A stretch of DNA of 36,768 bases, from positions 1 to 36,768 of the IMG/VR virus record IMGVR_UViG_3300050132_000219, one strand, 5' to 3'. The notes under the pieces were generated by a model that was not told the origin of the DNA, ran no database searches, and was given only the letters and a program-made list of their open reading frames with translations. The position numbers and the translations under genes were made by a program. Positions 5,510-36,768 of this stretch are shown piece after piece (the stretch's first letter is position 1; every line of letters begins with the position of its first letter). Origin of the DNA: a virus. Lineage: Duplodnaviria > Caudoviricetes.

Positions 5510-5737
5510 TCAAGCGTCTAACGGCTCATCTGGCCGTGGGAATCGTAGGGTAATGTCTTCGGGCATGTGGGGGCTGAGCCGCCATGGATCCAAGTCATCT
5601 GCACACTCAGGACACACACGCAGACCGGGTGCGTTCTTGTCAGACACAAGAGTGCTGTATGGGCGCTTGGCATGACATCTGTCGCACACGGAAATTGCGC
5701 AAGAGGAGTACCCAGAAGTGTCAAGGTACAAAGGCAT
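5510..5737 (-). CDS. Small CxxC...CxxC zinc-binding protein
   Basis: CDRC and CPEC motifs. SD AAGGAG upstream. Confidence 0.75.
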   Translation of the reverse strand: MPLYLDTSGYSSCAISVCDRCHAKRPYSTLVSDKNAPGLRVCPECADDLDPWRLSPHMPEDITLRFPRPDEPLDA

Positions 5738-6545
5738 AATGGCTCTCCTTTTGTAGCGCTAAGCAAGCCCAAGATACCGTTTTTCCAACTTCTAAAGCAA
5801 CTTCTTTTAACTTAGCTCCGTTCTTGTGCATATGTTGGGCTATAGCATTGTCAAACCAATTCCATTTGTTCTTAACAAGGCCGCTTGCAATATTCGCTCG
5901 TTGCCTGTTATTTGAAATCCGTTCTCTGTAGCTCGCGTCTGTTAAAAATCTACGCGTGAACTCAATGCCAACTAGGGTTTGATACCCCTCTACTCTGTGC
6001 TGAGTAGCTTTCGATCTTAGTGACTTTATCTTTTCATCAAACACAGGATCAATAACCCGATGCACGGCTATATTTTTTTCTCGAGTCTTTGATGCGTTAG
6101 ACTTTACTTCAAGATATAGCTTTTCGTATTCTGGGTTAGCTCTTAACTCAGTCACTTTATCATGACCTAATTTTCCGGCTACTAAATACATTTTTTTCCA
6201 TTTCAAACGCAACACCTCAGGCATGGTTGCTATTTCACTTTTTGATGGAAAACCGCTTTTAGTCCCACCTAAGTTGTAGCCCTTTTTCCTATCGTATGCC
6301 TGAAACTTAAGAATATACTCAAGTTCTAAAGCTGGCAGGTTTATAGCACAGTCACGATCTAATATTGAAAAGACAAAGGCATCAACTCCGTGCTTTCGTA
6401 AACTGCAATGAATAGGAAAAGGAGAACCTTTTTTCGCATCAATCTTATGTTGTGCCCATCTAAGTTCTATATTTACAGATCGTCCAATATAAGACTTACC
6501 TGTTACAGTATTAAGTATCCTGTAGACTCCAGAAATAGGACTCAT
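5721..6545 (-). CDS. Freestanding GIY-YIG homing endonuclease
   Basis: SGVYRI...SYIG.S.NIELRW..H...ELEYI...GYN. AT-rich relative to neighbours and overlaps both flanking genes. Confidence 0.88.
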   Translation of the reverse strand: MSPISGVYRILNTVTGKSYIGRSVNIELRWAQHKIDAKKGSPFPIHCSLRKHGVDAFVFSILDRDCAINLPALELEYILKFQAYDRKKGYNLGGTKSGFPSKSEIATMPEVLRLKWKKMYLVAGKLGHDKVTELRANPEYEKLYLEVKSNASKTREKNIAVHRVIDPVFDEKIKSLRSKATQHRVEGYQTLVGIEFTRRFLTDASYRERISNNRQRANIASGLVKNKWNWFDNAIAQHMHKNGAKLKEVALEVGKTVSWACLALQKESHYAFVP

Positions 6546-12398: not shown

Positions 12399-12842
12399 TT
12401 AAACCATGTGGGCGCGTACCTTGCGGACGTCGCCAGTGTATTTGCCGATCAGGTCACCGTCGCTCATGATGGCAAGCATGATTGGTTCGAGGCCGTCGGC
12501 CATATCAACCGTCCACCTCTCGCCTCCCCACCGGCTGACCTTTACATAATCCCCAACGCCCGCCCAGATCCCCTCTGGCCACGGTTCGCCGGTGGCGCGG
12601 TTCTTGAAGGCTAAGGGGCCAACCGCGACCACAAGGGCGATGGTTGAGTTGTAGGCTTCGGTTTCCTTGACTTCTTTGGGCAAATAGATGCCACCAGAAG
12701 TCTTGCTGACCACGCGCCGTAATTGGACCACTACGCGGTGTCCGAAGGGCACGAATTCAGGGTCAATGGGAGGAAACATTTCTTCAAGTGACTTGTCAGC
12801 CACTGAGAGACCTTGGCCGTAGGGATTGATAACTTCTGGCAT
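12399..12842 (-). CDS. GroES-like co-chaperonin
   Basis: PFGHRVVV...KTSGGIYLP...VVAVGP...VGDYV...DLIG matches the Cpn10 pattern. Confidence 0.88.
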   Translation of the reverse strand: MPEVINPYGQGLSVADKSLEEMFPPIDPEFVPFGHRVVVQLRRVVSKTSGGIYLPKEVKETEAYNSTIALVVAVGPLAFKNRATGEPWPEGIWAGVGDYVKVSRWGGERWTVDMADGLEPIMLAIMSDGDLIGKYTGDVRKVRAHMV

Positions 12843-13138
12843 TATTTAACTCCTTTAGGGTTACGTTTCTTGGGCCACGCTTTGAGCTGCACGCGCTTGA
12901 CTGGAAATGGCTCCTTAGCCTTCTTGCATAGGGCCACAAACTTTGTTTCAATGTAGTTAGGTCGACCGACCTTCACAACGAAGTCACCCCACAGATTGCG
13001 CTTGCTGAATTTGTGGCGTCTGCAAATCGAGATCACCAACTTTGGGTCTGCATAGTAAGTGGCCCGACGCATATCAGTGTTGTCAAGCAGCGATCGCATA
13101 ACTTGTGCGACAAGCATGGGGATAGATAGGTCTTTCAT
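12842..13138 (-). CDS. Basic hypothetical protein
   Basis: Start and stop overlap both neighbours. Confidence 0.7.
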   Translation of the reverse strand: MKDLSIPMLVAQVMRSLLDNTDMRRATYYADPKLVISICRRHKFSKRNLWGDFVVKVGRPNYIETKFVALCKKAKEPFPVKRVQLKAWPKKRNPKGVK

Positions 13139-13368
13139 ACCAATTCCCAGTCATCGGCCAGCATGTCTGTCTGACTAGCAAGCCAAGGCACGCGAGCACC
13201 AGGAGTGTTCTGCGCATTGTCCGGGTAACTCATGAAGATGTAGGGCATGGTCATCTTGCTATTGGCGTCGGGCACTTGTAGCTCAAGCCACAACCCTTTA
13301 CCATTCCACCCACTGCGAGACACTTTCATGCCCGCTTTTAGCGCGTTGAGCGCGGAACCGAAGTCCAT
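13135..13368 (-). CDS. DUF2829 / Tad2-like anti-defence sponge protein
   Basis: SD GGAG before ATG 13368. MDFGSALNALKAG.KV.R.GWNGKG...PWLASQTDMLADDW. Confidence 0.82.
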   Translation of the reverse strand: MDFGSALNALKAGMKVSRSGWNGKGLWLELQVPDANSKMTMPYIFMSYPDNAQNTPGARVPWLASQTDMLADDWELV

Positions 13369-13428
13369 AAATCGTTCTCCAAACAGAACCGCCCAGATAT
13401 GGCCGCTGGGCACTCGGCATGCGACGAA

Positions 13429-16819: not shown

Positions 16820-18853
16820 TTATAACCTTGAACCGTATTGCAGCGGGTACTTATTTGCCTGCGGGCTATACTTCTGGGCAATGCTTAGGGCTGCTTGCCA
16901 GGTGGGTGCGGGCTTGGGGAGGACTGGACCACCGTGGGCGAAGCCTGTTGGTTTCAACAAGCTGTCTGTTCCTTGCAACGACTCTGCCAAGGCATTCAGT
17001 TCATCCATGGAAGCGTACCCGCCAAACTTAGCCTTTGCAGCCTTCATAAATTCAGGAGAGGTTGATCCGGTGAGACGTGATAAATCTTCCAACCCACTAT
17101 TCTGCAAATCTCCCACATCACTCCACTGGCCCGACTTGACAAAGTCCTGAACGAAGGGCAGGTACTCGTCGTTGGGCTTCTGGTTGGCTTTACCTTTGAT
17201 TTGGATGATGGAATTGACCGGATTGTCGTTGGCCAATCTGGTCATGTTTTGATTTACAGCTGTCAAAAAAGCTGCAGAGGGGTCATTGGGTGTTCCTGGA
17301 TTTACCTCATTGGCGAGTGCTTCATTTTGAGCTTGCTCTCTGAACTTCTCTAAGTGGTCTGTGCCATAACTTTGTTGAGGCCTCGTCTCCACAGTCACAT
17401 GTGGCACCCCTTTGGCATCGCGCAGGCTGAAGATGTTGCTCTTGCCCGACAGCACGTCGTCAGCATAGCCGCCCACACAGTGGCCCATGGTGTCGCCTTC
17501 GTACTTGAGGGCGTCTTGTAGAGACTCAGCTCGTTCCTTACGTTGATACAGACCTAGCGCTTCTTGGGGTGTCGCGCCTACTGACACGCTCTGCCCTGTA
17601 GATTGATCAATGATGCCATACTGGTCTGGAAAACCGCTGACAGGCCCAGGTACAGGTCCTTCTGCGAGTGTGGGTTCCGGAGCCGTCAACTGCACCCACC
17701 GCAGACCCTTCGGGTTGGGCGTTGCGTCGCTATGAGGATACTCTTTGTGCAGGACGGTCGCTGCGTTGTTGGCGATTGCCTCATTAGCCGCAACCGTCTG
17801 GTCCTCACGCCATGCGTTGATCTTGCTGACCCGTTCCACAGCATCAGGCACGCTCAGCCGGGCCAGACTCTCGGGCTTGAGTTGCAGGTTGGCAGGCAGG
17901 CCCGACGCGGGGTCTGTGGCGTTGCGTAGCTCGTCGATGAGATGGTCGAAGCCGAGGTCTGCCACGCTAGAGTTAGAAGAAGCATTGTAAACAGGCGTTT
18001 TTGGGGGCACCTTGCGTAGCCATGAATTAGCCATCTCGGTCATTGAAGGCGTAGGCTGCGGCCCAGGAAAAGGTGTAAGCCACTGTTCTGCAATGTTAGG
18101 ATCTATCGCGTTATCTGACAAGACTTCCCACTGTTTAGCAAGCTGTGTTTGCCCCGCACCGAGCCTAGGAAAGCCACTGTTTTCTCGATTTAAAGCTGTG
18201 GTAAAGGTGGGTGGGTTGATAGGCACCATCTCGGGTTGCATATGCAACACCCCACGCTCAGCCAGCGCCCGGATAGGATCCTCCGGCGTGGCCATGTCGT
18301 TCTTGACATAACGGGTGAGCTGTTTGTCAATGAAGTTGTTGACCGCCGCGTCTCTAACTTCTACTGGAAAAGGTGCTTTTAACCCAACAGGTATATCACT
18401 CTTCAACCCACCCAACGCTCCCTCCACACTCCCATTCAGCCAATTGCCGCCCGGCCCTTTGATGACGCCCTGCTGAGCCAACAACCCACCCGTCATCGGC
18501 CCTGGAGCCAGACTCAGAGCACGCTTGGCTATGCCTGAGGCCACAGGCAGCACCTGCATCGCAGTGCCAATGGGGAAGCCCACCTCCGCTCCACGCCGAA
18601 CGCTGGCGTTCCGGCTGCTAGCGTCTGGGTCTAGTACGCTGCCCTGAGACAGCTCGTCAGGAGCGCTACCCATTAGCCCCGCTAGTGCTCCGTACAGCGT
18701 CGGGTATTGTGAGCGCAGTTCGCTTTCGGTTTGGGGCTGGATGATGTTGGCGTCGAGGACGCTGCCACCTTGAGCGTAAGGCATTGGAGCACCCACCACG
18801 CTCGACAGTTGTTTCAGTGTGCGACCTTTGGAGGCAGTTAGATTGACGGGCAT
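16820..18853 (-). CDS. 677-aa protein with a PcfJ-like domain (putative virion-packaged protein)
   Basis: LKYEGDTMGHCVGGY...IFSLRD...PHVTVE...IIQIKGKAN. Confidence 0.65.
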   Translation of the reverse strand: MPVNLTASKGRTLKQLSSVVGAPMPYAQGGSVLDANIIQPQTESELRSQYPTLYGALAGLMGSAPDELSQGSVLDPDASSRNASVRRGAEVGFPIGTAMQVLPVASGIAKRALSLAPGPMTGGLLAQQGVIKGPGGNWLNGSVEGALGGLKSDIPVGLKAPFPVEVRDAAVNNFIDKQLTRYVKNDMATPEDPIRALAERGVLHMQPEMVPINPPTFTTALNRENSGFPRLGAGQTQLAKQWEVLSDNAIDPNIAEQWLTPFPGPQPTPSMTEMANSWLRKVPPKTPVYNASSNSSVADLGFDHLIDELRNATDPASGLPANLQLKPESLARLSVPDAVERVSKINAWREDQTVAANEAIANNAATVLHKEYPHSDATPNPKGLRWVQLTAPEPTLAEGPVPGPVSGFPDQYGIIDQSTGQSVSVGATPQEALGLYQRKERAESLQDALKYEGDTMGHCVGGYADDVLSGKSNIFSLRDAKGVPHVTVETRPQQSYGTDHLEKFREQAQNEALANEVNPGTPNDPSAAFLTAVNQNMTRLANDNPVNSIIQIKGKANQKPNDEYLPFVQDFVKSGQWSDVGDLQNSGLEDLSRLTGSTSPEFMKAAKAKFGGYASMDELNALAESLQGTDSLLKPTGFAHGGPVLPKPAPTWQAALSIAQKYSPQANKYPLQYGSRL

Positions 18854-18908: not shown

Positions 18909-20477
18909 TTAGCCATACGGGTTTACTTTCGCTTGTCTGCGGGCGACGTAGTCCACATCTTGCGCTTCTTCTTCAGCAACTTGAACCTCTAGCTGACCTG
19001 TGTCTCGTAAGTACAAGGCTATCTGCGTCATGCAGTCCACCATTTCATCGTGCTCTCCCGCTGGGAACTGCTCCAGCTGTTCCAGCATCTGATTACACCA
19101 CGTGCGTGACTTGCCGCGTGTCTTCGCGCTCTCCAACAGCCACCAGTTGTCATTCTCGAGCAATGGCGCTGTCATGTGGGCACGAGAAATCTTATCCGCT
19201 CTGCCCGGGTTGTACGGCACAGCAGGTATGTTAGACAGATGCAAGTCCTGCAGCAACGATTGACCTGAACCTTTGTTCTCAACCAGGATGATGTCCGCAC
19301 GGCGCGAGGGCTTCATAATCTTCTTCTTGTCGCCCCCGTAGCGAGCGCCCCAATCATCTATGACACGCTTCTTCAGCTTAGGATAAGACAGATGCTCGTT
19401 CCAGCAATCTAGTAACAGCACGTTGATTCGCTTCTCGTATTCAAACAGACCCCAGACCTGACAGCCCGTAGGGTCTCCCGAAGTCTTCTCCGTGAATGCG
19501 GTGTCTATTGACTGCCCTACCCATATCAAGTCCGGCATCTCCTTGTCACAAGGCCAGAGCCTGAACTTGTCGGTCTTGAGTATGCCGCCACCGGCAGGCG
19601 AAGGTCGTTGTTGGAGTTGGCCAGCCGTGCCGTAGGTGCCCAGAGATACTTTAAGACTGTCAATCTCAGTTCGGCCAAAGCGTTCAGGGCATATCAACTC
19701 TCCTTCCTTGGTGCGAGGATCATATGGCCCTAGAATAGTTTTACGCTTAGTAAGTTCGTACTCGGCTGGAATGCACACATGCTCCCATACTCCTACTTGA
19801 TTCTGTATAACCCCGCTGATGTCTTTGTGGTGAAGACGCTGCATGACCACAACCATTGCATCTTCTTTTGGGTTGTTAAGGCGGGTACTCCATACCATAT
19901 TGAACCATTCAATAGCACTTTCTCGCATAGCGTCAGACTGGGCATCCTGCGCGCCATGAGGGTCGTCCAGGATCAATCTACTGCCCCCTTCACCTGTTGC
20001 AGTACCACCTACTGAAGTTGCAATGCGATAGCCCGTGCGATCGTTTTCAAATCGCTGCTTAGCCGACTGATCTCCAGATAAAGAGAACCGGTCTCCCCAT
20101 CGCTCTTGGTACCAGGGAGACTGCACAAGACGCCGAGCCTTCAGGTTGTCACGTATGGATAGCACAGAAGAGTAGGACGCAGAAAGGTACTTCTCATCTG
20201 GTCTAGACAGCCACTCCCAGCACCCCCACATCACGCTTACGATGATGGACTTGCTGTGACGAGGAGGGATGTTTATGAGCAACCGTGTTATGTGCCCCTC
20301 GGTTATGGCCTGGAGATGATCGCAAATCACTTGAATGTGCCAGGACTCAATGAATGGCACTCCGGGCTCCACCACATGCCATGCCTGCTTAACAAACTCG
20401 TACAATGACTTTTCAGCTACTCTTTTACTTTGCTCTTTAGCAATAGCTTCGAGTATGATTTGAGGAGAAAGACTCAT
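18909..20477 (-). CDS. terL: Terminase large subunit
   Basis: INIPPRHSKS Walker A, LILDDPH Walker B, VMQRLH motif and nuclease motifs SIDTA, VENKGSG, HDEMVD. Confidence 0.95.
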   Translation of the reverse strand: MSLSPQIILEAIAKEQSKRVAEKSLYEFVKQAWHVVEPGVPFIESWHIQVICDHLQAITEGHITRLLINIPPRHSKSIIVSVMWGCWEWLSRPDEKYLSASYSSVLSIRDNLKARRLVQSPWYQERWGDRFSLSGDQSAKQRFENDRTGYRIATSVGGTATGEGGSRLILDDPHGAQDAQSDAMRESAIEWFNMVWSTRLNNPKEDAMVVVMQRLHHKDISGVIQNQVGVWEHVCIPAEYELTKRKTILGPYDPRTKEGELICPERFGRTEIDSLKVSLGTYGTAGQLQQRPSPAGGGILKTDKFRLWPCDKEMPDLIWVGQSIDTAFTEKTSGDPTGCQVWGLFEYEKRINVLLLDCWNEHLSYPKLKKRVIDDWGARYGGDKKKIMKPSRRADIILVENKGSGQSLLQDLHLSNIPAVPYNPGRADKISRAHMTAPLLENDNWWLLESAKTRGKSRTWCNQMLEQLEQFPAGEHDEMVDCMTQIALYLRDTGQLEVQVAEEEAQDVDYVARRQAKVNPYG

Positions 20478-21205
20478 AGTACCCTAGTCTTACCTGTATG
20501 CTTTGATCTACTTTGATGCTTACCTAATGGCCCAGGTAAAGTAGTCATACCACAAACGTTGCAAGACCAAGATTGGCTATTTGTTACTTTGCAGCCCTTC
20601 GGCCCCCCAATCTTTCCACCGAGTTTGCCCATCATAGACATATGCTCTGGGTGTTCAATAGCATGCTTTTTAGCGGCAATACCAATTTTATAGTTACTGT
20701 CTATCGTTTTGCCATCCCTCATATGTTGAGCTAATACTTGGCGCTCAAATGCTGACATACTGGCAAAACGGGCTTTAAGTATTTTTGATCTTTTTTCTGG
20801 ACTATTCTTTGCGCGCATCTTTTTAACTATCAACGCGTACAACTCAGGAGATCGTTTAGCGTGCTCTTTTAACGCCCCGGCTCTAATATCGTCTGGATGA
20901 AATGCTTTTCCACACCCACGATTGTAAAAAGAGTCAGATAGTACAGCGTCATGTAATGTGATTAAACTTACCTCGACATTCAGTACATAGTCCACGTCAC
21001 CTTGAACTACTATTTGCTTTTTAAATCTAACTGGATCCGCTCTAAACAAAAGGGCTATTATTTTGCTATTAGTAAAATAAGTAATACCTAGGTCTTCAGG
21101 TGCACATCCTCTTGCATATCGAACGCCAATGTACTGTCTATCTGTTTCTAAGTCAGTAAGTTTGTAAACATATGGCTGAGACTCAGTTCCAACTTTGTAT
21201 CGCAT
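20474..21205 (-). CDS. Freestanding GIY-YIG-like homing endonuclease
   Basis: YVYKL...YIGVR...YFT.S...E...FYN. AT-rich, with a C-terminal CxxC...H motif; sits between terS and terL. Confidence 0.75.
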   Translation of the reverse strand: MRYKVGTESQPYVYKLTDLETDRQYIGVRYARGCAPEDLGITYFTNSKIIALLFRADPVRFKKQIVVQGDVDYVLNVEVSLITLHDAVLSDSFYNRGCGKAFHPDDIRAGALKEHAKRSPELYALIVKKMRAKNSPEKRSKILKARFASMSAFERQVLAQHMRDGKTIDSNYKIGIAAKKHAIEHPEHMSMMGKLGGKIGGPKGCKVTNSQSWSCNVCGMTTLPGPLGKHQSRSKHTGKTRVL

Positions 21206-28173: not shown

Positions 28174-28815
28174 ATGAGTAAAAAAGTAGTTACCGGTCGT
28201 GTTCGCTTCAGCTATTTCAACGCATTCAAACCGCGGTTGAATACCCTGAGTAACAAGTCTGAATTCTCGACCCAAATCCTGGTACCTAAGTCTGACGTCA
28301 CAACCATTGCTGCTATCAAGGCCGCCATCTCTGAAGCCGTGACCGACAAGTTCGGTGGCAAGCGCCCGGTGGGCCTGCGCAACCCGCTGAAAAACGGCGA
28401 TGCCATTGTTGACGAGGGAGCAACGGCTTTGGGCAAAGAGTATGCGGGGCATTACTACTTCAGCGCGAAAGCATCTGAAGACAAACCACCACAGATCGTA
28501 GATGCTGAAGGCCAGTCCATTCTGTCGGCGCAAGAGTTCGGCAGCGGCGATTATGGCCGGGTGAGCGTGACCTTCTATGGGTACGATCAAAAGGTCAACA
28601 AGGGGGTGTCCGCGTGGTTGAATAATATCCAGTTCCTTGAAAAAGGAGAAGCCCTTGACGGCCGGTCTACTGCTGAAGAAGACTTCGCGCAGCCTATCAA
28701 AAAAGCGGCCCCAAAGGCTGCGGCACCAGTAGTTAAGACAGCGGCGCCGAAAAAACCTGCGGTTGAAGAGCCTGAAACCGATGAGGCCGACAGCGCCGAG
28801 GAGGACTGGGCCTAA
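28174..28815 (+). CDS. DUF2815 ssDNA-binding protein
   Basis: RFSY, FS...L.PK.D, NPLKNGD, SG.YGR.S and NKGV...LNNIQ....GE, with acidic tail ending DWA. Confidence 0.9.
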   Translation: MSKKVVTGRVRFSYFNAFKPRLNTLSNKSEFSTQILVPKSDVTTIAAIKAAISEAVTDKFGGKRPVGLRNPLKNGDAIVDEGATALGKEYAGHYYFSAKASEDKPPQIVDAEGQSILSAQEFGSGDYGRVSVTFYGYDQKVNKGVSAWLNNIQFLEKGEALDGRSTAEEDFAQPIKKAAPKAAAPVVKTAAPKKPAVEEPETDEADSAEEDWA

Positions 28816-28895: not shown

Positions 28896-28976
28896 GGACG
28901 TTTGACCGAGTGGCCGAAGGTGTCGGACTGTAAATCCGATCGTAATTGCACGTTGGTTCGAATCCAACAGCGTCCA
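28896..28976 (+). tRNA. tRNA-Tyr (GTA)
   Basis: Acceptor GGACGTT/AGCGTCC, D-arm with TGG, anticodon arm TCGGA-CTGTAAA-TCCGA, T-arm GTTGG-TTCGAAT-CCAAC, discriminator A. CCA is not encoded (CCG). Confidence 0.92.
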
Positions 28977-28996
28977 CCGTACTTATTGGACTTTTT

Positions 28997-29374
28997 ATGA
29001 CTGAAACTGTTAACACTGTAGCGGCCATGGCCCGCAAATTTGGCCTTGAGTACCTTGGGACTCCACGCCATTTGTCTCCTGAAGAAAAGATTTTCCGAGT
29101 CACTTGCTTGGCCGAAGAAGTCGACGAGTACATTGACGCGAAGACCAAGGCCGATGAGTTCGACGCCTTGCTTGACTTGCTGGTATTTACTATTGGCACG
29201 ATGCTCCGTCAAGGCTTTCCGATTCTGCCAGGCTTCCAGCGAGTGATGGCTGCAAACATGATGAAGCGGCCAGCCCTAGTACGGGCGGCCAGCAAACGAA
29301 ATTTTGAACTGGATTTGGTCAAACCTGTTGGCTGGGTACCCCCGATTCTCTCGGATCTTGTAGGAGAGCTTTGA
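28997..29374 (+). CDS. MazG-like (PRA-PH family) nucleotide pyrophosphohydrolase
   Basis: LAEEVDEY...DALLDL...V..ANM.K...KP.GW.PP. ATG 28997 chosen because the longer ORF overlaps the tRNA. Confidence 0.82.
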   Translation: MTETVNTVAAMARKFGLEYLGTPRHLSPEEKIFRVTCLAEEVDEYIDAKTKADEFDALLDLLVFTIGTMLRQGFPILPGFQRVMAANMMKRPALVRAASKRNFELDLVKPVGWVPPILSDLVGEL

Positions 29375-29376
29375 AA

Positions 29377-29571
29377 ATGAAACAGGAATTTACACAAGAG
29401 CAGATGTCCTGGTATCAAGTCTATGAGGCAGTACGCAGCGGCGGGGCCTACAACATGTTTGACCCCCGTGCCCTGGAATCGACAGGCCTTGCAAAGAATG
29501 AGTACTTGTTCGTGTTGAATAACTTCAGTGCGATGACGACAGCGATGGAGGTCTCTCATGAGCAACCATGA
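29377..29571 (+). CDS. Small protein, DUF5049-like
   Basis: VRSGGAYNMFD motif; SD GGAGAG. Confidence 0.65.
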   Translation: MKQEFTQEQMSWYQVYEAVRSGGAYNMFDPRALESTGLAKNEYLFVLNNFSAMTTAMEVSHEQP

Positions 29572-29761
29572 CTACGTAGAAATCGATTGTGAAGTCAAAG
29601 TCGAGACCGATCATGCCTATTTGATATTTGATGGCAAAACCGAAGCTTGGGTACCTAAATCCCAGGTCTCTGATTTCAGCGATGAAGCACGCAATGGCCG
29701 TACTGTCATTACCAGTGTCTTCATCCCAGAATGGCTTGCAAATAAAAAAGGATTGATATGA
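29558..29761 (+). CDS. Small phage hypothetical protein
   Basis: ETDHAYL...WVPKSQV...IPEWLA; SD GGAGG. Confidence 0.75.
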   Translation: MSNHDYVEIDCEVKVETDHAYLIFDGKTEAWVPKSQVSDFSDEARNGRTVITSVFIPEWLANKKGLI

Positions 29762-30147
29762 TTACCTTAGCTGTTGGCCTGGTTGAGCCTACCAATACAA
29801 AGCCTACCAATACAAAGCCTACCAATACAAAGCCCACTGGCTCCGACCTTGAGAGCCAAGAACCGGTAGACTCCATTTCTGCGGTCCTCGCCGAGCGCGG
29901 GACTAAGTATGGGGCTTTCATTAACCATGCCGAGATCTGCCAAGATCTGAAACTGGCGATCAAATTGCATCTTGATAATCGGCAAAAAAGTTTGCACTAC
30001 GACCAACAAGAAGCCCTGGATATGATCTGCCACAAGATTGCCCGTATTATCAATGGCGATGCAGACTACGCCGACTCCTGGGTCGACATTGCCGGCTATG
30101 CCAAACTGGTGGCCGACCGCCTGGAGAAGATGCATGCAGAGCTATAA
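29758..30147 (+). CDS. DUF6378-like protein
   Basis: ERG.KYG.F...KIAR...G......DSWVDIAGY. Confidence 0.78.
   Translation: MITLAVGLVEPTNTKPTNTKPTNTKPTGSDLESQEPVDSISAVLAERGTKYGAFINHAEICQDLKLAIKLHLDNRQKSLHYDQQEALDMICHKIARIINGDADYADSWVDIAGYAKLVADRLEKMHAEL
29786..29834. repeat. 15-bp perfect tandem repeat, 3 copies
   Basis: AGCCTACCAATACAA x3, encoding PTNTK repeats. Confidence 0.95.
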
Positions 30148-30973
30148 AAATTTACTGACCAAAGTGCTGGCAATGGGAGAGCCGAAACCGTCACGCGCCG
30201 GAATGACTATCTTCTTGCCGCACCAGCAATTGTCTCATGACTGTCGTAATGGGTTCCCGGCTTTGACCGGCCGAAAACTGCACTTCAAAAGTGTTGCTGC
30301 AGAATTGGATTGCTTTATCCACGGTATTTCTGACATCCGGGCCTTTCATGACCGCGGTTGCCACATCTGGGATGCCAACCTTGCGGACTACAACAAACGA
30401 CTCGGTAGACTAAGTAAGTTAGGTGGTGTGGACAATACTGACCTTGGCTTTATCTATGGCCGGGTCTGGCGGGGTCCTTATGATGACAGTGCTGACCAGC
30501 TGGCTTGGGTCCTTGCCGAAGCAAAGCGTGACCCCTCATCGCGCCGGCTATTCGTGACGGCCTGGGTTCATGAACTGGCGGTAGACCCAATGACCTGTGC
30601 CTTGCCGCCTTGTCATTTAAGCTTCCAGCTTACCATCAATAACGGTATGCTGGACCTTTGCTTTTACATGCGCTCTGTAGATCTTGCTCTGGGCCTGCCA
30701 TTCGACATGGCGTCCTACGCTTTACTTCAAGCGTTAATTGCCAATGACTTGGGACTGCGACCACGGTACCTCACCGGGTTTCTCGCCGATGCGCACATTT
30801 ACGAGCAGAACAGAGACGCCGTGACCGAGTACCTGGGCCGGGAGTTATTCGCCTTGCCAACCTTGGTACTGGACCTGCCGCCGGGAAGGGCTATCGAAGC
30901 TTTTGATTACTCCCAGGCCTCACTTGATCATTATCAGCATGGAGCGGCGATTAAGACGTCGATGGCCGTATGA
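30134..30973 (+). CDS. Thymidylate synthase-fold enzyme with dCMP-type specificity residue
   Basis: SRR, LPPCH, YMRSVDLALGLPFD and AHIY. Likely start MQSYKNLL at 30134. Confidence 0.9.
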   Translation: MQSYKNLLTKVLAMGEPKPSRAGMTIFLPHQQLSHDCRNGFPALTGRKLHFKSVAAELDCFIHGISDIRAFHDRGCHIWDANLADYNKRLGRLSKLGGVDNTDLGFIYGRVWRGPYDDSADQLAWVLAEAKRDPSSRRLFVTAWVHELAVDPMTCALPPCHLSFQLTINNGMLDLCFYMRSVDLALGLPFDMASYALLQALIANDLGLRPRYLTGFLADAHIYEQNRDAVTEYLGRELFALPTLVLDLPPGRAIEAFDYSQASLDHYQHGAAIKTSMAV

Positions 30974-31425
30974 CCCTCCGTGCTACTTTTGAAGGGTACC
31001 TTCTTGCTTTAGCGGTTGTCGCGGCGCGCCAAGGAACTTGTAGTAAACGGCAAGTCGGTTGCGTCATAGCCAATACTAATAACCGAGTCATTAGTATTGG
31101 GTACAACGGTGTTGCTGCAGGGCGAGCTCATTGTATTGATTCCCCATGTAAAGCTGTTACTGAGAGGGCCCCCGTTTCACATATCAAGTGCATGAGTCAA
31201 CACGCCGAAATCTCAGCCCTAATACAAGCCGGTGCGGCTACTTACGGTGGGACAATGGCGATAACGACATCACCTTGTGCCTCTTGCACAATCGCGCTTA
31301 TTACTGCTGGAGTAAAACGGTTAGTTTTTAGTGAAGTAAATAGACTTTGGGACAATGAGATAGACTATGAGGTTTCTCCATATCAATTAGTAACTGAGGC
31401 TAAAATATCATGGGCCCTAGTATAA
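30970..31425 (+). CDS. dCMP deaminase
   Basis: C.KRQVG...IGYNG...HAE.SA...SPCASC. Confidence 0.9.
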   Translation: MTLRATFEGYLLALAVVAARQGTCSKRQVGCVIANTNNRVISIGYNGVAAGRAHCIDSPCKAVTERAPVSHIKCMSQHAEISALIQAGAATYGGTMAITTSPCASCTIALITAGVKRLVFSEVNRLWDNEIDYEVSPYQLVTEAKISWALV

Positions 31426-32114
31426 AGCAATGCGCTTGTTGTAAAGAGACAAAGCATAAAAGTGACTTTGGCTTTGCCTCTAGATACTCAGATAAGCTAT
31501 ACGTGTACTGTAGGGCCTGTGTTGCACAGAAAGGTCAAATTCTCAAACAAAATAGAGAGGTAACCCCCGCACTTAAAGCTAAATGGAAAGCGCGTACAGA
31601 CTTACGAAGAAGCACCCCAGAAGGACGTGAAGAGATTAGAGCGGCAAATAGAAAGTACCTCGCTAATAAACGACAGGACCCTATTTATCGTGCAGCGGAT
31701 AGACTTAGGAGTTTAATTTATCATAAGACGCATCCTAATGGGCTATACGCAAAAATAAGAAAAGACCCAATCTTTGCTCTAAGTGTGCGTGTTAGAGGCC
31801 TAATAAAAATGGCACTTAAAAATAAGCAAGTAGCTAAGGCCTCAAAAACAGAGGTTTTTTTAGGTTGCGACTACGAATTTTTTAGCTTATACCTTGAACT
31901 TCAATTTACCGAAGGTATGTCATGGGAAAACTTAGGTCAATGGCATCTAGATCATAAAACCCCAATTAGTTGGGCCACAACGACAGAAGAAGTGATTAAA
32001 CTAAATCATTTTTCAAACTTTCAACCCTTATGGGCTAAAGACAATTTAGCAAAAGGTAACAAGTTTAGCTCTTCTCGCATACCTATTATTGAAAGGCCAC
32101 CACATGACAACTAA
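31410..32114 (+). CDS. HNH-type homing endonuclease
   Basis: N-terminal CxxC...CxxC and GMSWEN.G.WHLDH..P...NH..N.QPLW..DN..KG; AT-rich. Confidence 0.85.
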   Translation: MGPSIKQCACCKETKHKSDFGFASRYSDKLYVYCRACVAQKGQILKQNREVTPALKAKWKARTDLRRSTPEGREEIRAANRKYLANKRQDPIYRAADRLRSLIYHKTHPNGLYAKIRKDPIFALSVRVRGLIKMALKNKQVAKASKTEVFLGCDYEFFSLYLELQFTEGMSWENLGQWHLDHKTPISWATTTEEVIKLNHFSNFQPLWAKDNLAKGNKFSSSRIPIIERPPHDN

Positions 32115-32325
32115 ACCCGCAGCAATGACTTCAAAAAACAAGCACGAGCACTTCGTCGGTGTCTACGTGTCAAAAAGTATTCTCCGAGCACTTGACAAAG
32201 CGGCCAACGCCGAAAGCACGTCCCGGAGTTTTATCATTCGCAAATTGTTAACTGAAAAACTGAAACAAAATGAAGCTATCACGCTCAGGTACTCAGCCCC
32301 CCACACAGGCAAGTCTTTCGATTGA
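32104..32325 (+). CDS. Ribbon-helix-helix (CopG-like) DNA-binding protein
   Basis: FVGVYV...LRALDKAA....TSRSFIIRKLL. Confidence 0.7.
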   Translation: MTTKPAAMTSKNKHEHFVGVYVSKSILRALDKAANAESTSRSFIIRKLLTEKLKQNEAITLRYSAPHTGKSFD

Positions 32326-35518: not shown

Positions 35519-36016
35519 ATGACTGATGCCATAAACGTTAAGACCGCAACTACCGCGGCGCTACTTGCTTTTTTCAATGCCAATACTGGTGGCGCGCAAG
35601 TCACCAAATTCAAAGACCATGCGACCGCAGAGACACGGGTCTCAAAACTGTTGGCCGAGATGGTTGCCGATGGCGACCTTGAGGCTTCCGAAGTTCTGGC
35701 TGTCAAAGCTCCCAAGGTACCAAAAGAGCCCAAGGTGCCCAAAGTTCCTAAAGAGCCCAAAGCTCCAAAGGTTGCCAAAGAGCCCAAGGTCAAGGCCGTC
35801 AAGGAGCCTAAGGCGCCTAAGATGCTCTTCATCACCAAACTCGGCCTGGGCGATTGTGGTGTCAAGATGAGTACCTTTCGCGGCCAGATCCTGCAAACCA
35901 TTCGCGATGCTGGAACTGCTGGCGCCAATAAGGCCCAAGTTGTTGCCAAGCATGCCTTGTACACGGCCGACGTGGTTTGCAAGTTCAAACGCCTGGGTTT
36001 CATCACTGAGGCCTAG
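35519..36016 (+). CDS. Early protein with Lys/Pro-rich repeat linker
   Basis: SD GGAG before ATG 35519. APKVPKEPKVPKVPKEPKAPKVAKEPK. Confidence 0.75.
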   Translation: MTDAINVKTATTAALLAFFNANTGGAQVTKFKDHATAETRVSKLLAEMVADGDLEASEVLAVKAPKVPKEPKVPKVPKEPKAPKVAKEPKVKAVKEPKAPKMLFITKLGLGDCGVKMSTFRGQILQTIRDAGTAGANKAQVVAKHALYTADVVCKFKRLGFITEA

Positions 36017-36374: not shown

Positions 36375-36768
36375 CCAACAAATATGAATTCGTCCCAGGC
36401 GATGAAATCACTATCGCCCCAGGCCGCACAGTAAAGCGCATTCGTGCGCTTGTTGCGATTGCTGCTTTTGGCGTAATGCCAGGACAACTTGGCGGCTATG
36501 TCGAGTCAGACAAAAACTTAGCGCAGGTGTCCGGCAATGCGCAGGTGTCCGGCAATGCGTGGGTGTCCGGCGATGCACGGGTGTCCGGCAATGCGCAGGT
36601 GTCCGGCAATGCGCAGGTGTACGGCGATGCACGGGTGTACGGCAATGCGTGGGTGTACAGCAATGCGCGGGTGTCCGGCAATGCGCAGGTGTCCGGCGAT
36701 GCACGGGTGTACGGCAAGGCGTGGGTGTACAGCAATGCGCGGGTGTCCGGCAATGCACGGGTGTCCGG
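36371..36768 (+). CDS. Hexapeptide-repeat (left-handed beta-helix-like) protein, truncated by the window end
   Basis: MTNKYEF...RIRAL...GQLGGYVESDKNL, then (A[QWR]V[SY][GS][NDK])n. Not in ORF track because no stop is reached. Confidence 0.85.
   Translation, partial: MTNKYEFVPGDEITIAPGRTVKRIRALVAIAAFGVMPGQLGGYVESDKNLAQVSGNAQVSGNAWVSGDARVSGNAQVSGNAQVYGDARVYGNAWVYSNARVSGNAQVSGDARVYGKAWVYSNARVSGNARVS
36521..36768 (+). repeat. 18-bp coding tandem repeat, 13 full copies and 1 partial
   Basis: Unit GC(G/A)-(CAG/TGG/CGG)-GTG-T(C/A)C-(G/A)GC-(AAT/GAT/AAG). Confidence 0.95.

What the first reader, a model, noticed from the sequence alone, without database searches (positions are those of the whole stretch)
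28997..31425. Thymidylate-synthase homolog with dCMP-specifying Asp beside a dCMP deaminase and a MazG-like enzyme: 5-methyl-dCMP pathway
Seen: the TS-fold gene reads YMRSVDLALGLPF-D-MASY, with codon GAC at 30704-30706. E. coli ThyA has YQRSCDVFLGLPF-N177-IASY here. Established: Asn177 selects dUMP. Asp at this position occurs in T4 dCMP hydroxymethylase (Asp179, also preceded by MRS), and the N177D change shifts ThyA towards dCMP methylation. Seen: ThyA-like PCH and IW (Trp80-equivalent) are retained, the stop overlaps a dCMP deaminase start, and a MazG-like pyrophosphohydrolase and a DUF6378 gene lie upstream in the same operon as the phage polymerase. Inference: the enzyme makes 5-methyl-dCMP (or hydroxymethyl-dCMP). 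That product is either put into DNA as an anti-restriction base, or deaminated to dTMP, giving a dUMP-free route dCTP->dCMP->5mdCMP->dTMP. No nucleotide kinase or glycosyltransferase is visible here, which mildly favours the second option.
Basis: partly seen in the sequence, partly recalled or inferred. Interest (0 to 1): 0.82.

Follow-up and report, generated by a model that had tools for sequence, protein, structure and literature searches.

The report
Phage dCMP methylase cassette, histidine-retaining clade
An uncultured peat phage has a thymidylate-synthase gene whose base-reading asparagine is replaced by aspartate, between a nucleotide pyrophosphatase gene and a cytidylate deaminase gene, so it likely methylates cytosine nucleotides for its DNA and likely makes thymidine from the same product, a recipe already described for phage Xp12.

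Summary
The ThyA-fold gene (30134-30973) has Asp191 (GAC, 30704-30706) at E. coli Asn177. An 812x contig from a second study shows the same codon, and all 27 closest relatives have Asp. Leu143 and Asp169 are kept, which points to a methylase, not a hydroxymethylase. The gene set (PRA-PH pyrophosphatase, Asp-type TS, PF00383 deaminase, PolA) is the one published by Yang et al. (bioRxiv 2024.12.05.627091) for cytosine-modified phages and Xp12, including dTTP made from 5mdCTP; this scan has also noted it on at least 10 other genomes. PRA-PH tracks Asp (22 of 41 loci) rather than Asn (1 of 54), which fits dCTP removal and 5mC in DNA. Differences from Xp12: 31% identity, His147 kept (Xp12 has Pro), and another deaminase subtype. 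One 58%-identical relative also carries a T4-gp42-like enzyme, which keeps a dTMP-only role open. No activity was tested. Verdict: real, a new member of a known kind.

The parts
28997..29374 (+). PRA-PH / MazG-like dNTP pyrophosphohydrolase, 125 aa; inferred dCTPase
   Evidence: PF01503 E 1e-5; phrog_671; weak PDB hits 3NL9 and DR2231; tracks Asp-type TS, 22 of 41 versus 1 of 54
29377..29571 (+). 64-aa ORF, no family
29558..29761 (+). 67-aa ORF, phrog_8389, function unknown
29758..30147 (+). DUF6378 protein, small four-helix domain behind a 15-bp tandem repeat; sits in the slot that Nmad1 (DUF1599-like) or DUF5664 domains fill in other Asp-TS cassettes
   Evidence: PF19905; repeat 29786-29834; slot; model pLDDT 94; profile match to Nmad1-like set only 14% probability
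30134..30973 (+). ThyA-fold enzyme, 279 aa, Asp191 at Asn177; Cys160, His161, Leu157, Met179, Asp183; predicted dCMP 5-methyltransferase
   Evidence: model pLDDT 94, TM about 0.9 to ThyA structures
30704..30706 (+). GAC codon of the specificity residue Asp191
   Evidence: unchanged in run X2
30970..31425 (+). PF00383 deoxycytidylate deaminase, 151 aa, HAE and PCxxC intact; TCxxR/HC subtype, unlike the SKD subtype of Xp12
31410..32114 (+). Endonuclease-VII/HNH-like gene; not found between deaminase and RHH in the syntenic relative L239, so probably an inserted element
   Evidence: phrog_1035
32104..32325 (+). Ribbon-helix-helix protein
   Evidence: PF01402; same place in L239
32270..34252 (+). 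Family A DNA polymerase; would incorporate 5mdCTP
   Evidence: PF00476, phrog_17
28174..28815 (+). Enc34-type ssDNA-binding protein heading the block
   Evidence: PF10991; same place in L239
28896..28978 (+). tRNA-Tyr(GTA) directly upstream of the pyrophosphatase

Best explanation
The gene encodes a ThyA-fold enzyme with aspartate at the base-reading position, which likely methylates dCMP to 5-methyl-dCMP, and the phage likely both builds its DNA with 5-methylcytosine and deaminates part of the methylated pool to thymine nucleotides, as described for Xp12. Steps: (1) the PRA-PH enzyme would hydrolyse host dCTP to dCMP (inferred from co-occurrence); (2) Cys160 would attack C6 of dCMP, with Asp191 reading N3 and the 4-amino group, and methylene-tetrahydrofolate giving the methyl group (residues shown, activity inferred); (3) an unrecognised phage or host kinase would make 5mdCTP (no gene found); (4) PolA would incorporate it, protecting the DNA from C-containing type II restriction sites (inferred); (5) the overlapping deaminase would turn 5mdCMP or 5mdCTP into dTMP or dTTP (inferred; the phosphate level is open). 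Folate recycling would rely on the host, as no DHFR was found in the window.
For: Asp at Asn177, with Glu58, Trp80, Tyr94, Arg126/127, Cys146, Arg166, Ser167, Asp169, His207 and Tyr209 all kept. Asp in 27 of 27 closest relatives. Yang et al. 2024 (sections 5, 6, 20 and passages read): TS within 3 kb of a deaminase in 104 of 149 modified contigs versus 17 of 277 unmodified; PRA-PH and PolA among the top five neighbours; 5 of 7 Asp-type TS made 5mdC in E. coli; mSCD-B5 deaminates 5mdCTP. Xp12 and PaMx74 have the same order, PRA-PH, TS, overlapping deaminase. In my loci, PRA-PH lies within 3 kb of 22 of 41 Asp-type versus 1 of 54 Asn-type TS, and a deaminase of 16 of 41 versus 4 of 54. L239 (56% identical) repeats the whole order SSB, PRA-PH, DUF6378, TS, deaminase, RHH, PolA. 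A marine Asp/His clade has PRA-PH but no PF00383 gene in 5 of 5 records, 4 of them at least 90% complete, so there the product seems to stay cytosine. The window avoids no 4-base palindrome (lowest observed/expected 0.82), and Asp loci avoid C-containing palindromes less than Asn loci (median minimum 0.66 versus 0.40, n = 26 and 44).
Against: No activity or DNA composition was measured. His147 is kept, whereas Xp12 and PaMx74 have Pro and the eLife MetaGPA paper ranks position 147 among the two positions that best separate modified from unmodified contigs. 2 of the 7 Asp-type TS tested by Yang et al. gave no 5mdC. No dNMP kinase, DHFR or HhH-GPD glycosylase was found among the 40 window ORFs scanned or the extra ORFs; the record may be incomplete. 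L003 (58% identical TS) also encodes a T4-gp42-like enzyme beside its deaminase, so there the Asp/His ThyA sits where other phages keep an ordinary Asn ThyA (L004, L048, Triscuit). A PRA-PH-like MazG enzyme of Deinococcus cleaves dUTP (passage in PMC5122711). The co-occurrence and site-avoidance counts are not corrected for kinship, the PRA-PH profile was seeded mostly from Asp loci, and at GC >= 0.47 the Asp and Asn ranges overlap.
Confidence: 0.57

Rival explanations
1. Cytosine-first thymidylate supply only: the enzyme methylates dCMP, the deaminase converts nearly all 5mdCMP to dTMP, and the phage DNA keeps plain cytosine.
For: L003/L084 carry a gp42-like enzyme (DFMCT motif as in T4) plus this Asp/His ThyA, the slot held by Asn-type ThyA in L004, L048 and Triscuit. 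The deaminase is closest to dCMP-level enzymes (2HVV, E 3e-15; T4 1VQ2) and not of the Xp12 subtype. No kinase found in the window. Three small cellular genomes have an Asp/Pro ThyA as the only TS found.
Against: Xp12 and PaMx74 also give no PF21448 match. PRA-PH tracks Asp; a dCTPase would harm a phage that needs dCTP. The marine Asp/His clade lacks a PF00383 deaminase. No restriction-site avoidance in the window.
Confidence: 0.23
2. Ordinary thymidylate module: the deaminase and a MazG-type dUTPase supply dUMP, and the enzyme still methylates dUMP in spite of the Asp.
For: About 40% identity to ordinary phage ThyA against 28-31% to Xp12/PaMx74; His147 and Leu143 kept; Asp arises at many places among Asn-type viral ThyA in the trees, as a tolerated change might; DR2231-like enzymes cleave dUTP.
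Against: Asn-to-Asp switches the substrate in engineered enzymes (as cited in PMC8670742). Asp is fixed across the clade and goes with loss of Gln165 (Met in 78 of 143 Asp rows versus 10 of 146 Asn rows). A dUTPase would be expected beside Asn-type TS too, yet PRA-PH is beside 1 of 54.
Confidence: 0.13
3. The enzyme is a dCMP hydroxymethylase or hydroxylase feeding a hypermodified cytosine.
For: Met before RS, as in T4 gp42.
Against: Leu at 143 (acidic in T4-type enzymes) and Asp at 169 (Asn in 5-hydroxy-dCMP synthases), by the rules in PMC13326640; full ThyA fold with the C-terminal tail and Trp80; no glycosyl- or carbamoyltransferase among the ORFs scanned.
Confidence: 0.05

Closest known systems
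Xanthomonas phage Xp12 (MT664984) and Pseudomonas phage PaMx74 (JQ067093) 5-methyl-dCMP module
   Same: Asp at 177; order PRA-PH, TS, overlapping PF00383 deaminase; PolA phage; no PF21448 kinase match.
   Different: Only 31% and 28% identical; His147 and Leu143 here, Pro and Asn there; deaminase of the TCxxR/HC subtype, not SKD; no DHFR or HhH-GPD gene found here; DUF6378 stands alone where Xp12 fuses an Nmad1-like domain to PRA-PH.
MetaGPA deaminase-linked Asp177 TS and mSCD deaminases (Yang et al., bioRxiv 10.1101/2024.12.05.627091; eLife PMC8670742)
   Same: Same neighbour set (TS, PF00383/PF14437 deaminase, PRA-PH, PolA) and the same proposed route to dTTP.
   Different: Whether His147-retaining enzymes were among those tested could not be seen (preprint supplements are closed; 'H147' does not occur in the main text). 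mSCD-B5 acts on triphosphates; this deaminase looks closer to dCMP-level enzymes.
Engineered L. casei TS N229D (PDB 1NJC) / E. coli ThyA N177D
   Same: Same residue pair, Asp with the His kept; best PDB sequence hit.
   Different: Natural and clade-wide here, with Gln165 changed to Met.
T4 gp42 dCMP hydroxymethylase
   Same: Asp at 177, Met before RS.
   Different: T4 has Asp at 143 and Thr at 147; this enzyme has Leu and His and the ThyA tail.

Membership tests
Phage dCMP 5-methyltransferase module (Xp12 / MetaGPA kind) | TS fold with catalytic Cys and Asp at Asn177 | tested here: met
Phage dCMP 5-methyltransferase module (Xp12 / MetaGPA kind) | PF00383 deaminase within 3 kb, with PRA-PH and PolA nearby | tested here: met
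   conserved in L239, L086, L237
Phage dCMP 5-methyltransferase module (Xp12 / MetaGPA kind) | Makes 5mdCMP from dCMP | not testable with these tools
   needs an assay
Phage dCMP 5-methyltransferase module (Xp12 / MetaGPA kind) | 5mC replaces C in virion DNA | tested here: inconclusive
   only indirect: no palindrome avoidance; runs held as contigs only
Xp12/PaMx74 enzyme subfamily (narrow) | Pro at 147 (VPCP), DHFR in the cassette, SKD-type deaminase | tested here: not met
   PPCH; 28-31% identity; no DHFR found; TCxxR deaminase
mSCD (5mC-selective deaminases) | Prefers 5mC over C | not testable with these tools
   the paper calls the trait polyphyletic and gives no sequence rule in the sections read
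T4-type dCMP hydroxymethylase | Acidic residue at Leu143 | tested here: not met
   Leu157, invariant in alignment A1
5-hydroxy-dCMP synthase | Asn at Asp169 | tested here: not met
   Asp183
Canonical dUMP-specific ThyA | Asn177 | tested here: not met
   Asp191

The most novel reading that the evidence does not exclude
The His147-retaining Asp177 clade is a dedicated cytosine-first thymidylate synthase: it methylates dCMP only so that a dCMP-level deaminase can make dTMP without ever passing through dUMP or dUTP, in phages whose DNA has plain or differently modified cytosine, as the relative L003 with a second, gp42-like enzyme suggests. That would separate the dUMP-free route from 5mC DNA, match the Asp/Pro ThyA seen as sole TS in some Patescibacteria, and break the rule that Asp177 marks a modified genome.
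Probability: 0.22. Interest if true: 0.6.

Novelty: new member of a known kind. Interest (0 to 1): 0.28.

Why it matters
As the best reading stands, it adds one more lineage of 5-methylcytosine phages and one more candidate 5mC-acting deaminase, a class with use in methylome sequencing. The clade is a natural copy of the engineered N177D/N229D enzyme with the histidine kept, so it tests whether Asp177 alone predicts substrate and modified DNA. If the dTMP-only reading held, it would show a dUMP-free thymidylate route that is separate from DNA modification.

Tried and rejected
No cultured member of the clade: the best phage records are at most 40% identical; three other Asp/His queries gave best hits of 45-56%, and the four such records I opened (E2, EH1, MW202475, Triscuit gene 67) have Asn, so no known DNA composition could be borrowed. 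eLife supplements searched for TS motifs and DUF6378: 0 hits, the large file is cut. Preprint supplements are closed and may show which TS types were tested. No RNA holder listed. Promoter and terminator scans were at chance level (5 versus 6.8; 8 versus 7.1). GATATC is absent from the window (0 versus 5.4 expected), which would fit selection against a site that C-methylation may not block, but it is one of 64 palindromes tested and L083 holds one copy: rejected. DUF6378: no PDB sequence or fold match above background; link to Nmad1 rests on a 14% profile match and one automatic name: a lead only. Independent origin from Xp12: not shown; the clade falls between Xp12 and ordinary ThyA with a long-branch warning. 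A deaminase-alignment scan could not run for lack of a conserved stretch. A trimeric dCTP deaminase was not searched for in the marine clade. The missing-kinase argument was rejected.

Full report
Observation. The window is a 36.8-kb phage record with terminase, portal, lysis and replication genes; the two runs that hold it are peat metagenomes. The TS gene starts at ATG 30134 and encodes 279 aa. Asp191 (GAC 30704-30706) aligns with L. casei Asn229 and E. coli Asn177; the top PDB sequence hit is the N229D mutant 1NJC. An AlphaFold model (pLDDT 94) matches ThyA structures at TM about 0.9. A contig from a second study covers the codon at depth 812 without change. Of 120 listed homologues, the 27 non-self hits above the score gap (45-72% identity) all have Asp, 26 have Met for Gln165 and 26 keep the His after the catalytic Cys. 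The Asp is real and clade-wide.

Product. PMC13326640 (passages and section 28 read) gives two rules: an acidic residue at Leu143 marks hydroxymethylases and Asn at Asp169 marks 5-hydroxy-dCMP synthases. This enzyme has Leu and Asp, so a methyl product is predicted. Xp12 has Asn at the 143 position in my alignment, so the rule is not strict. All other catalytic and phosphate-binding residues checked are canonical.

Neighbours. Upstream lie an ssDNA-binding protein, tRNA-Tyr, a PRA-PH pyrophosphatase, two short ORFs and DUF6378; downstream the overlapping deaminase, an endonuclease-VII-like gene, an RHH gene and PolA. L239 (TS 56% identical) repeats the order without the endonuclease. A motif scan of viral contigs gave 13 matches; of the 12 with a whole TS, 11 have a deaminase within about 2.2 kb and 8 a PRA-PH gene; four of these are contigs seen in earlier calls. 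Over loci with at least 1.7 kb on each side, after removing 11 near-duplicates by hand, PRA-PH lies within 3 kb of 22 of 41 Asp-type and 1 of 54 Asn-type TS genes, and a deaminase of 16 of 41 and 4 of 54. These counts are not corrected for kinship, my search patterns favoured Asp types, and the PRA-PH profile was seeded mostly from Asp loci.

Literature. Yang et al. (bioRxiv 10.1101/2024.12.05.627091; abstract, sections 5, 6, 20 and passages of the discussion and methods read) report TS beside a PF00383 deaminase in 104 of 149 modified and 17 of 277 unmodified contigs, with PRA-PH and PolA among the top neighbours; 5 of 7 Asp177 enzymes made 5mdC in E. coli with T4 gp1; mSCD-B5 turns 5mdCTP into dTTP and is inactive on monophosphates; they propose that Xp12-like phages make both 5mC DNA and dTTP this way. 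The eLife MetaGPA paper (section 11 and passages) ranks positions 177 and 147 as most different between modified and unmodified contigs. This scan's own notes hold 10 similar findings on other genomes; I saw them after reaching this reading.

5mC DNA or dTMP only? Xp12 and PaMx74, described as fully 5mC, give no PF21448 match and Xp12's annotation names no dNMP kinase; that Xp12 infection induces a 5mdCMP kinase activity is recalled, not checked. The argument therefore does not discriminate. For 5mC DNA: PRA-PH follows Asp; a marine Asp/His clade has PRA-PH but no PF00383 gene in 5 of 5 records; the window avoids no 4-base palindrome (lowest ratios 0.82-0.84); Asp loci avoid C-containing palindromes less than Asn loci (median minimum 0.66 versus 0.40, n = 26 and 44, p = 0.0008; GC-adjusted permutation p = 0.0016 on 63 rows after dropping Xp12, PaMx74, L004 and four near-duplicates). 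This is weak: at GC of 0.47 or more the ranges overlap. For dTMP only: L003/L084, with a 58%-identical TS, also encode a gp42-like enzyme next to their deaminase, the arrangement that L004, L048 and Triscuit have with an ordinary Asn ThyA; the window's deaminase resembles dCMP-level enzymes (2HVV, 1VQ2) and not the Xp12 subtype. I put 5mC DNA plus deamination at 0.57, dTMP only at 0.23, ordinary dUMP use at 0.13, hydroxymethyl at 0.05.

Differences from Xp12. Identity is 31% (PaMx74 28%), against about 40% to ordinary phage ThyA. His147 is kept. No DHFR or HhH-GPD gene was found. In trees, Asp types are scattered among Asn types, which points to several origins; the window's clade lies between Xp12 and ordinary ThyA with a long-branch warning, so a separate origin is not shown. 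No cultured member was found. DUF6378 fills the slot that an Nmad1-like or DUF5664 domain fills elsewhere, and Xp12's hydrolase is a PRA-PH plus Nmad1-like fusion; a family link is only a lead. Three papers in the library hold the term DUF6378 (listing only).

Cells. A strict Asp-type motif matched 10 places among 185,579 species genomes. Three of them are small cellular genomes where an Asp/Pro ThyA is the only TS found, in an operon with deaminase, kinase, DHFR, dUTPase and tmk (completeness unknown). Among 30 loci fetched from 61 related genomes, 4 have Pro and Asp together and 26 have His and Asn; a deaminase is adjacent in 3 of 4 and 19 of 26. Earlier agents noted this lineage trait. It shows that Asp-type enzymes can apparently serve dTMP supply, and is a separate finding.

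Verdict. Real, conserved, most likely a dCMP methylase cassette of the Xp12/MetaGPA kind in an uncultured, His147-retaining clade. New member of a known kind; interest 0.28.

Noticed in passing
L165:4070-4978, L166:5392-6300, L169:5749-6660, L184: Small cellular genomes (L166 titled Parcubacteria) whose only TS found has Pro147 and Asp177, the Xp12 pair, in a housekeeping operon with deaminase, kinase, DHFR, dUTPase and tmk; 4 of 30 related loci have the pair, 26 have His/Asn.
   Followed up: partly
L003:5505-10822 (also L001, L084, L230): A phage with two Asp-type TS genes: a T4-gp42-like enzyme beside PRA-PH/DUF5664 and the deaminase, and an Asp/His ThyA 58% identical to the window's.
   Followed up: partly
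L046, L047, L072, L078, L033 and 16 more loci: A marine phage clade (47-65 kb records) with Gln/His/Asp ThyA and PRA-PH but no PF00383 deaminase in 5 of 5 records searched: candidate 5mC phages without the deaminase.
   Followed up: partly
L172:5506-6300: Nonomuraea genome has ThyX plus a Pro/Asp ThyA homologue; possibly a cytosine-nucleotide methylase with another role.
   Followed up: no
P0005: Clade member with an insertion of about 180 aa in frame within the TS; no Pfam family for the insert; looks like a homing-endonuclease or intron ORF.
   Followed up: no
window 28896-28978: tRNA-Tyr(GTA) between the ssDNA-binding gene and the cassette.
   Followed up: no
window 13135-13413 and 12399-12842 (minus strand): A Tad2-like anti-defence domain gene (PF11195, E 1.5e-24) and a GroES-like gene (PF00166) among the structural genes.
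   Followed up: no
window 16820-18853 (minus strand): 677-aa ORF between the terminase large subunit and the portal, with only a short PcfJ-like match.
   Followed up: no
window 5721-6545, 20474-21205 (minus), 31410-32114 (plus): Three homing-endonuclease-like genes in 37 kb.
   Followed up: no
window 29786-29834, 35711-35790, 36521-36768: Short coding tandem repeats: 15-bp unit in DUF6378, Lys-Pro-rich unit, and an 18-bp beta-solenoid unit.
   Followed up: no
L004:5979-10861: Carbamoyltransferase, PRA-PH, Thr/Asp TS, deaminase and Asn ThyA in one block, like the carbamoyl-hmC system of the eLife paper.
   Followed up: no
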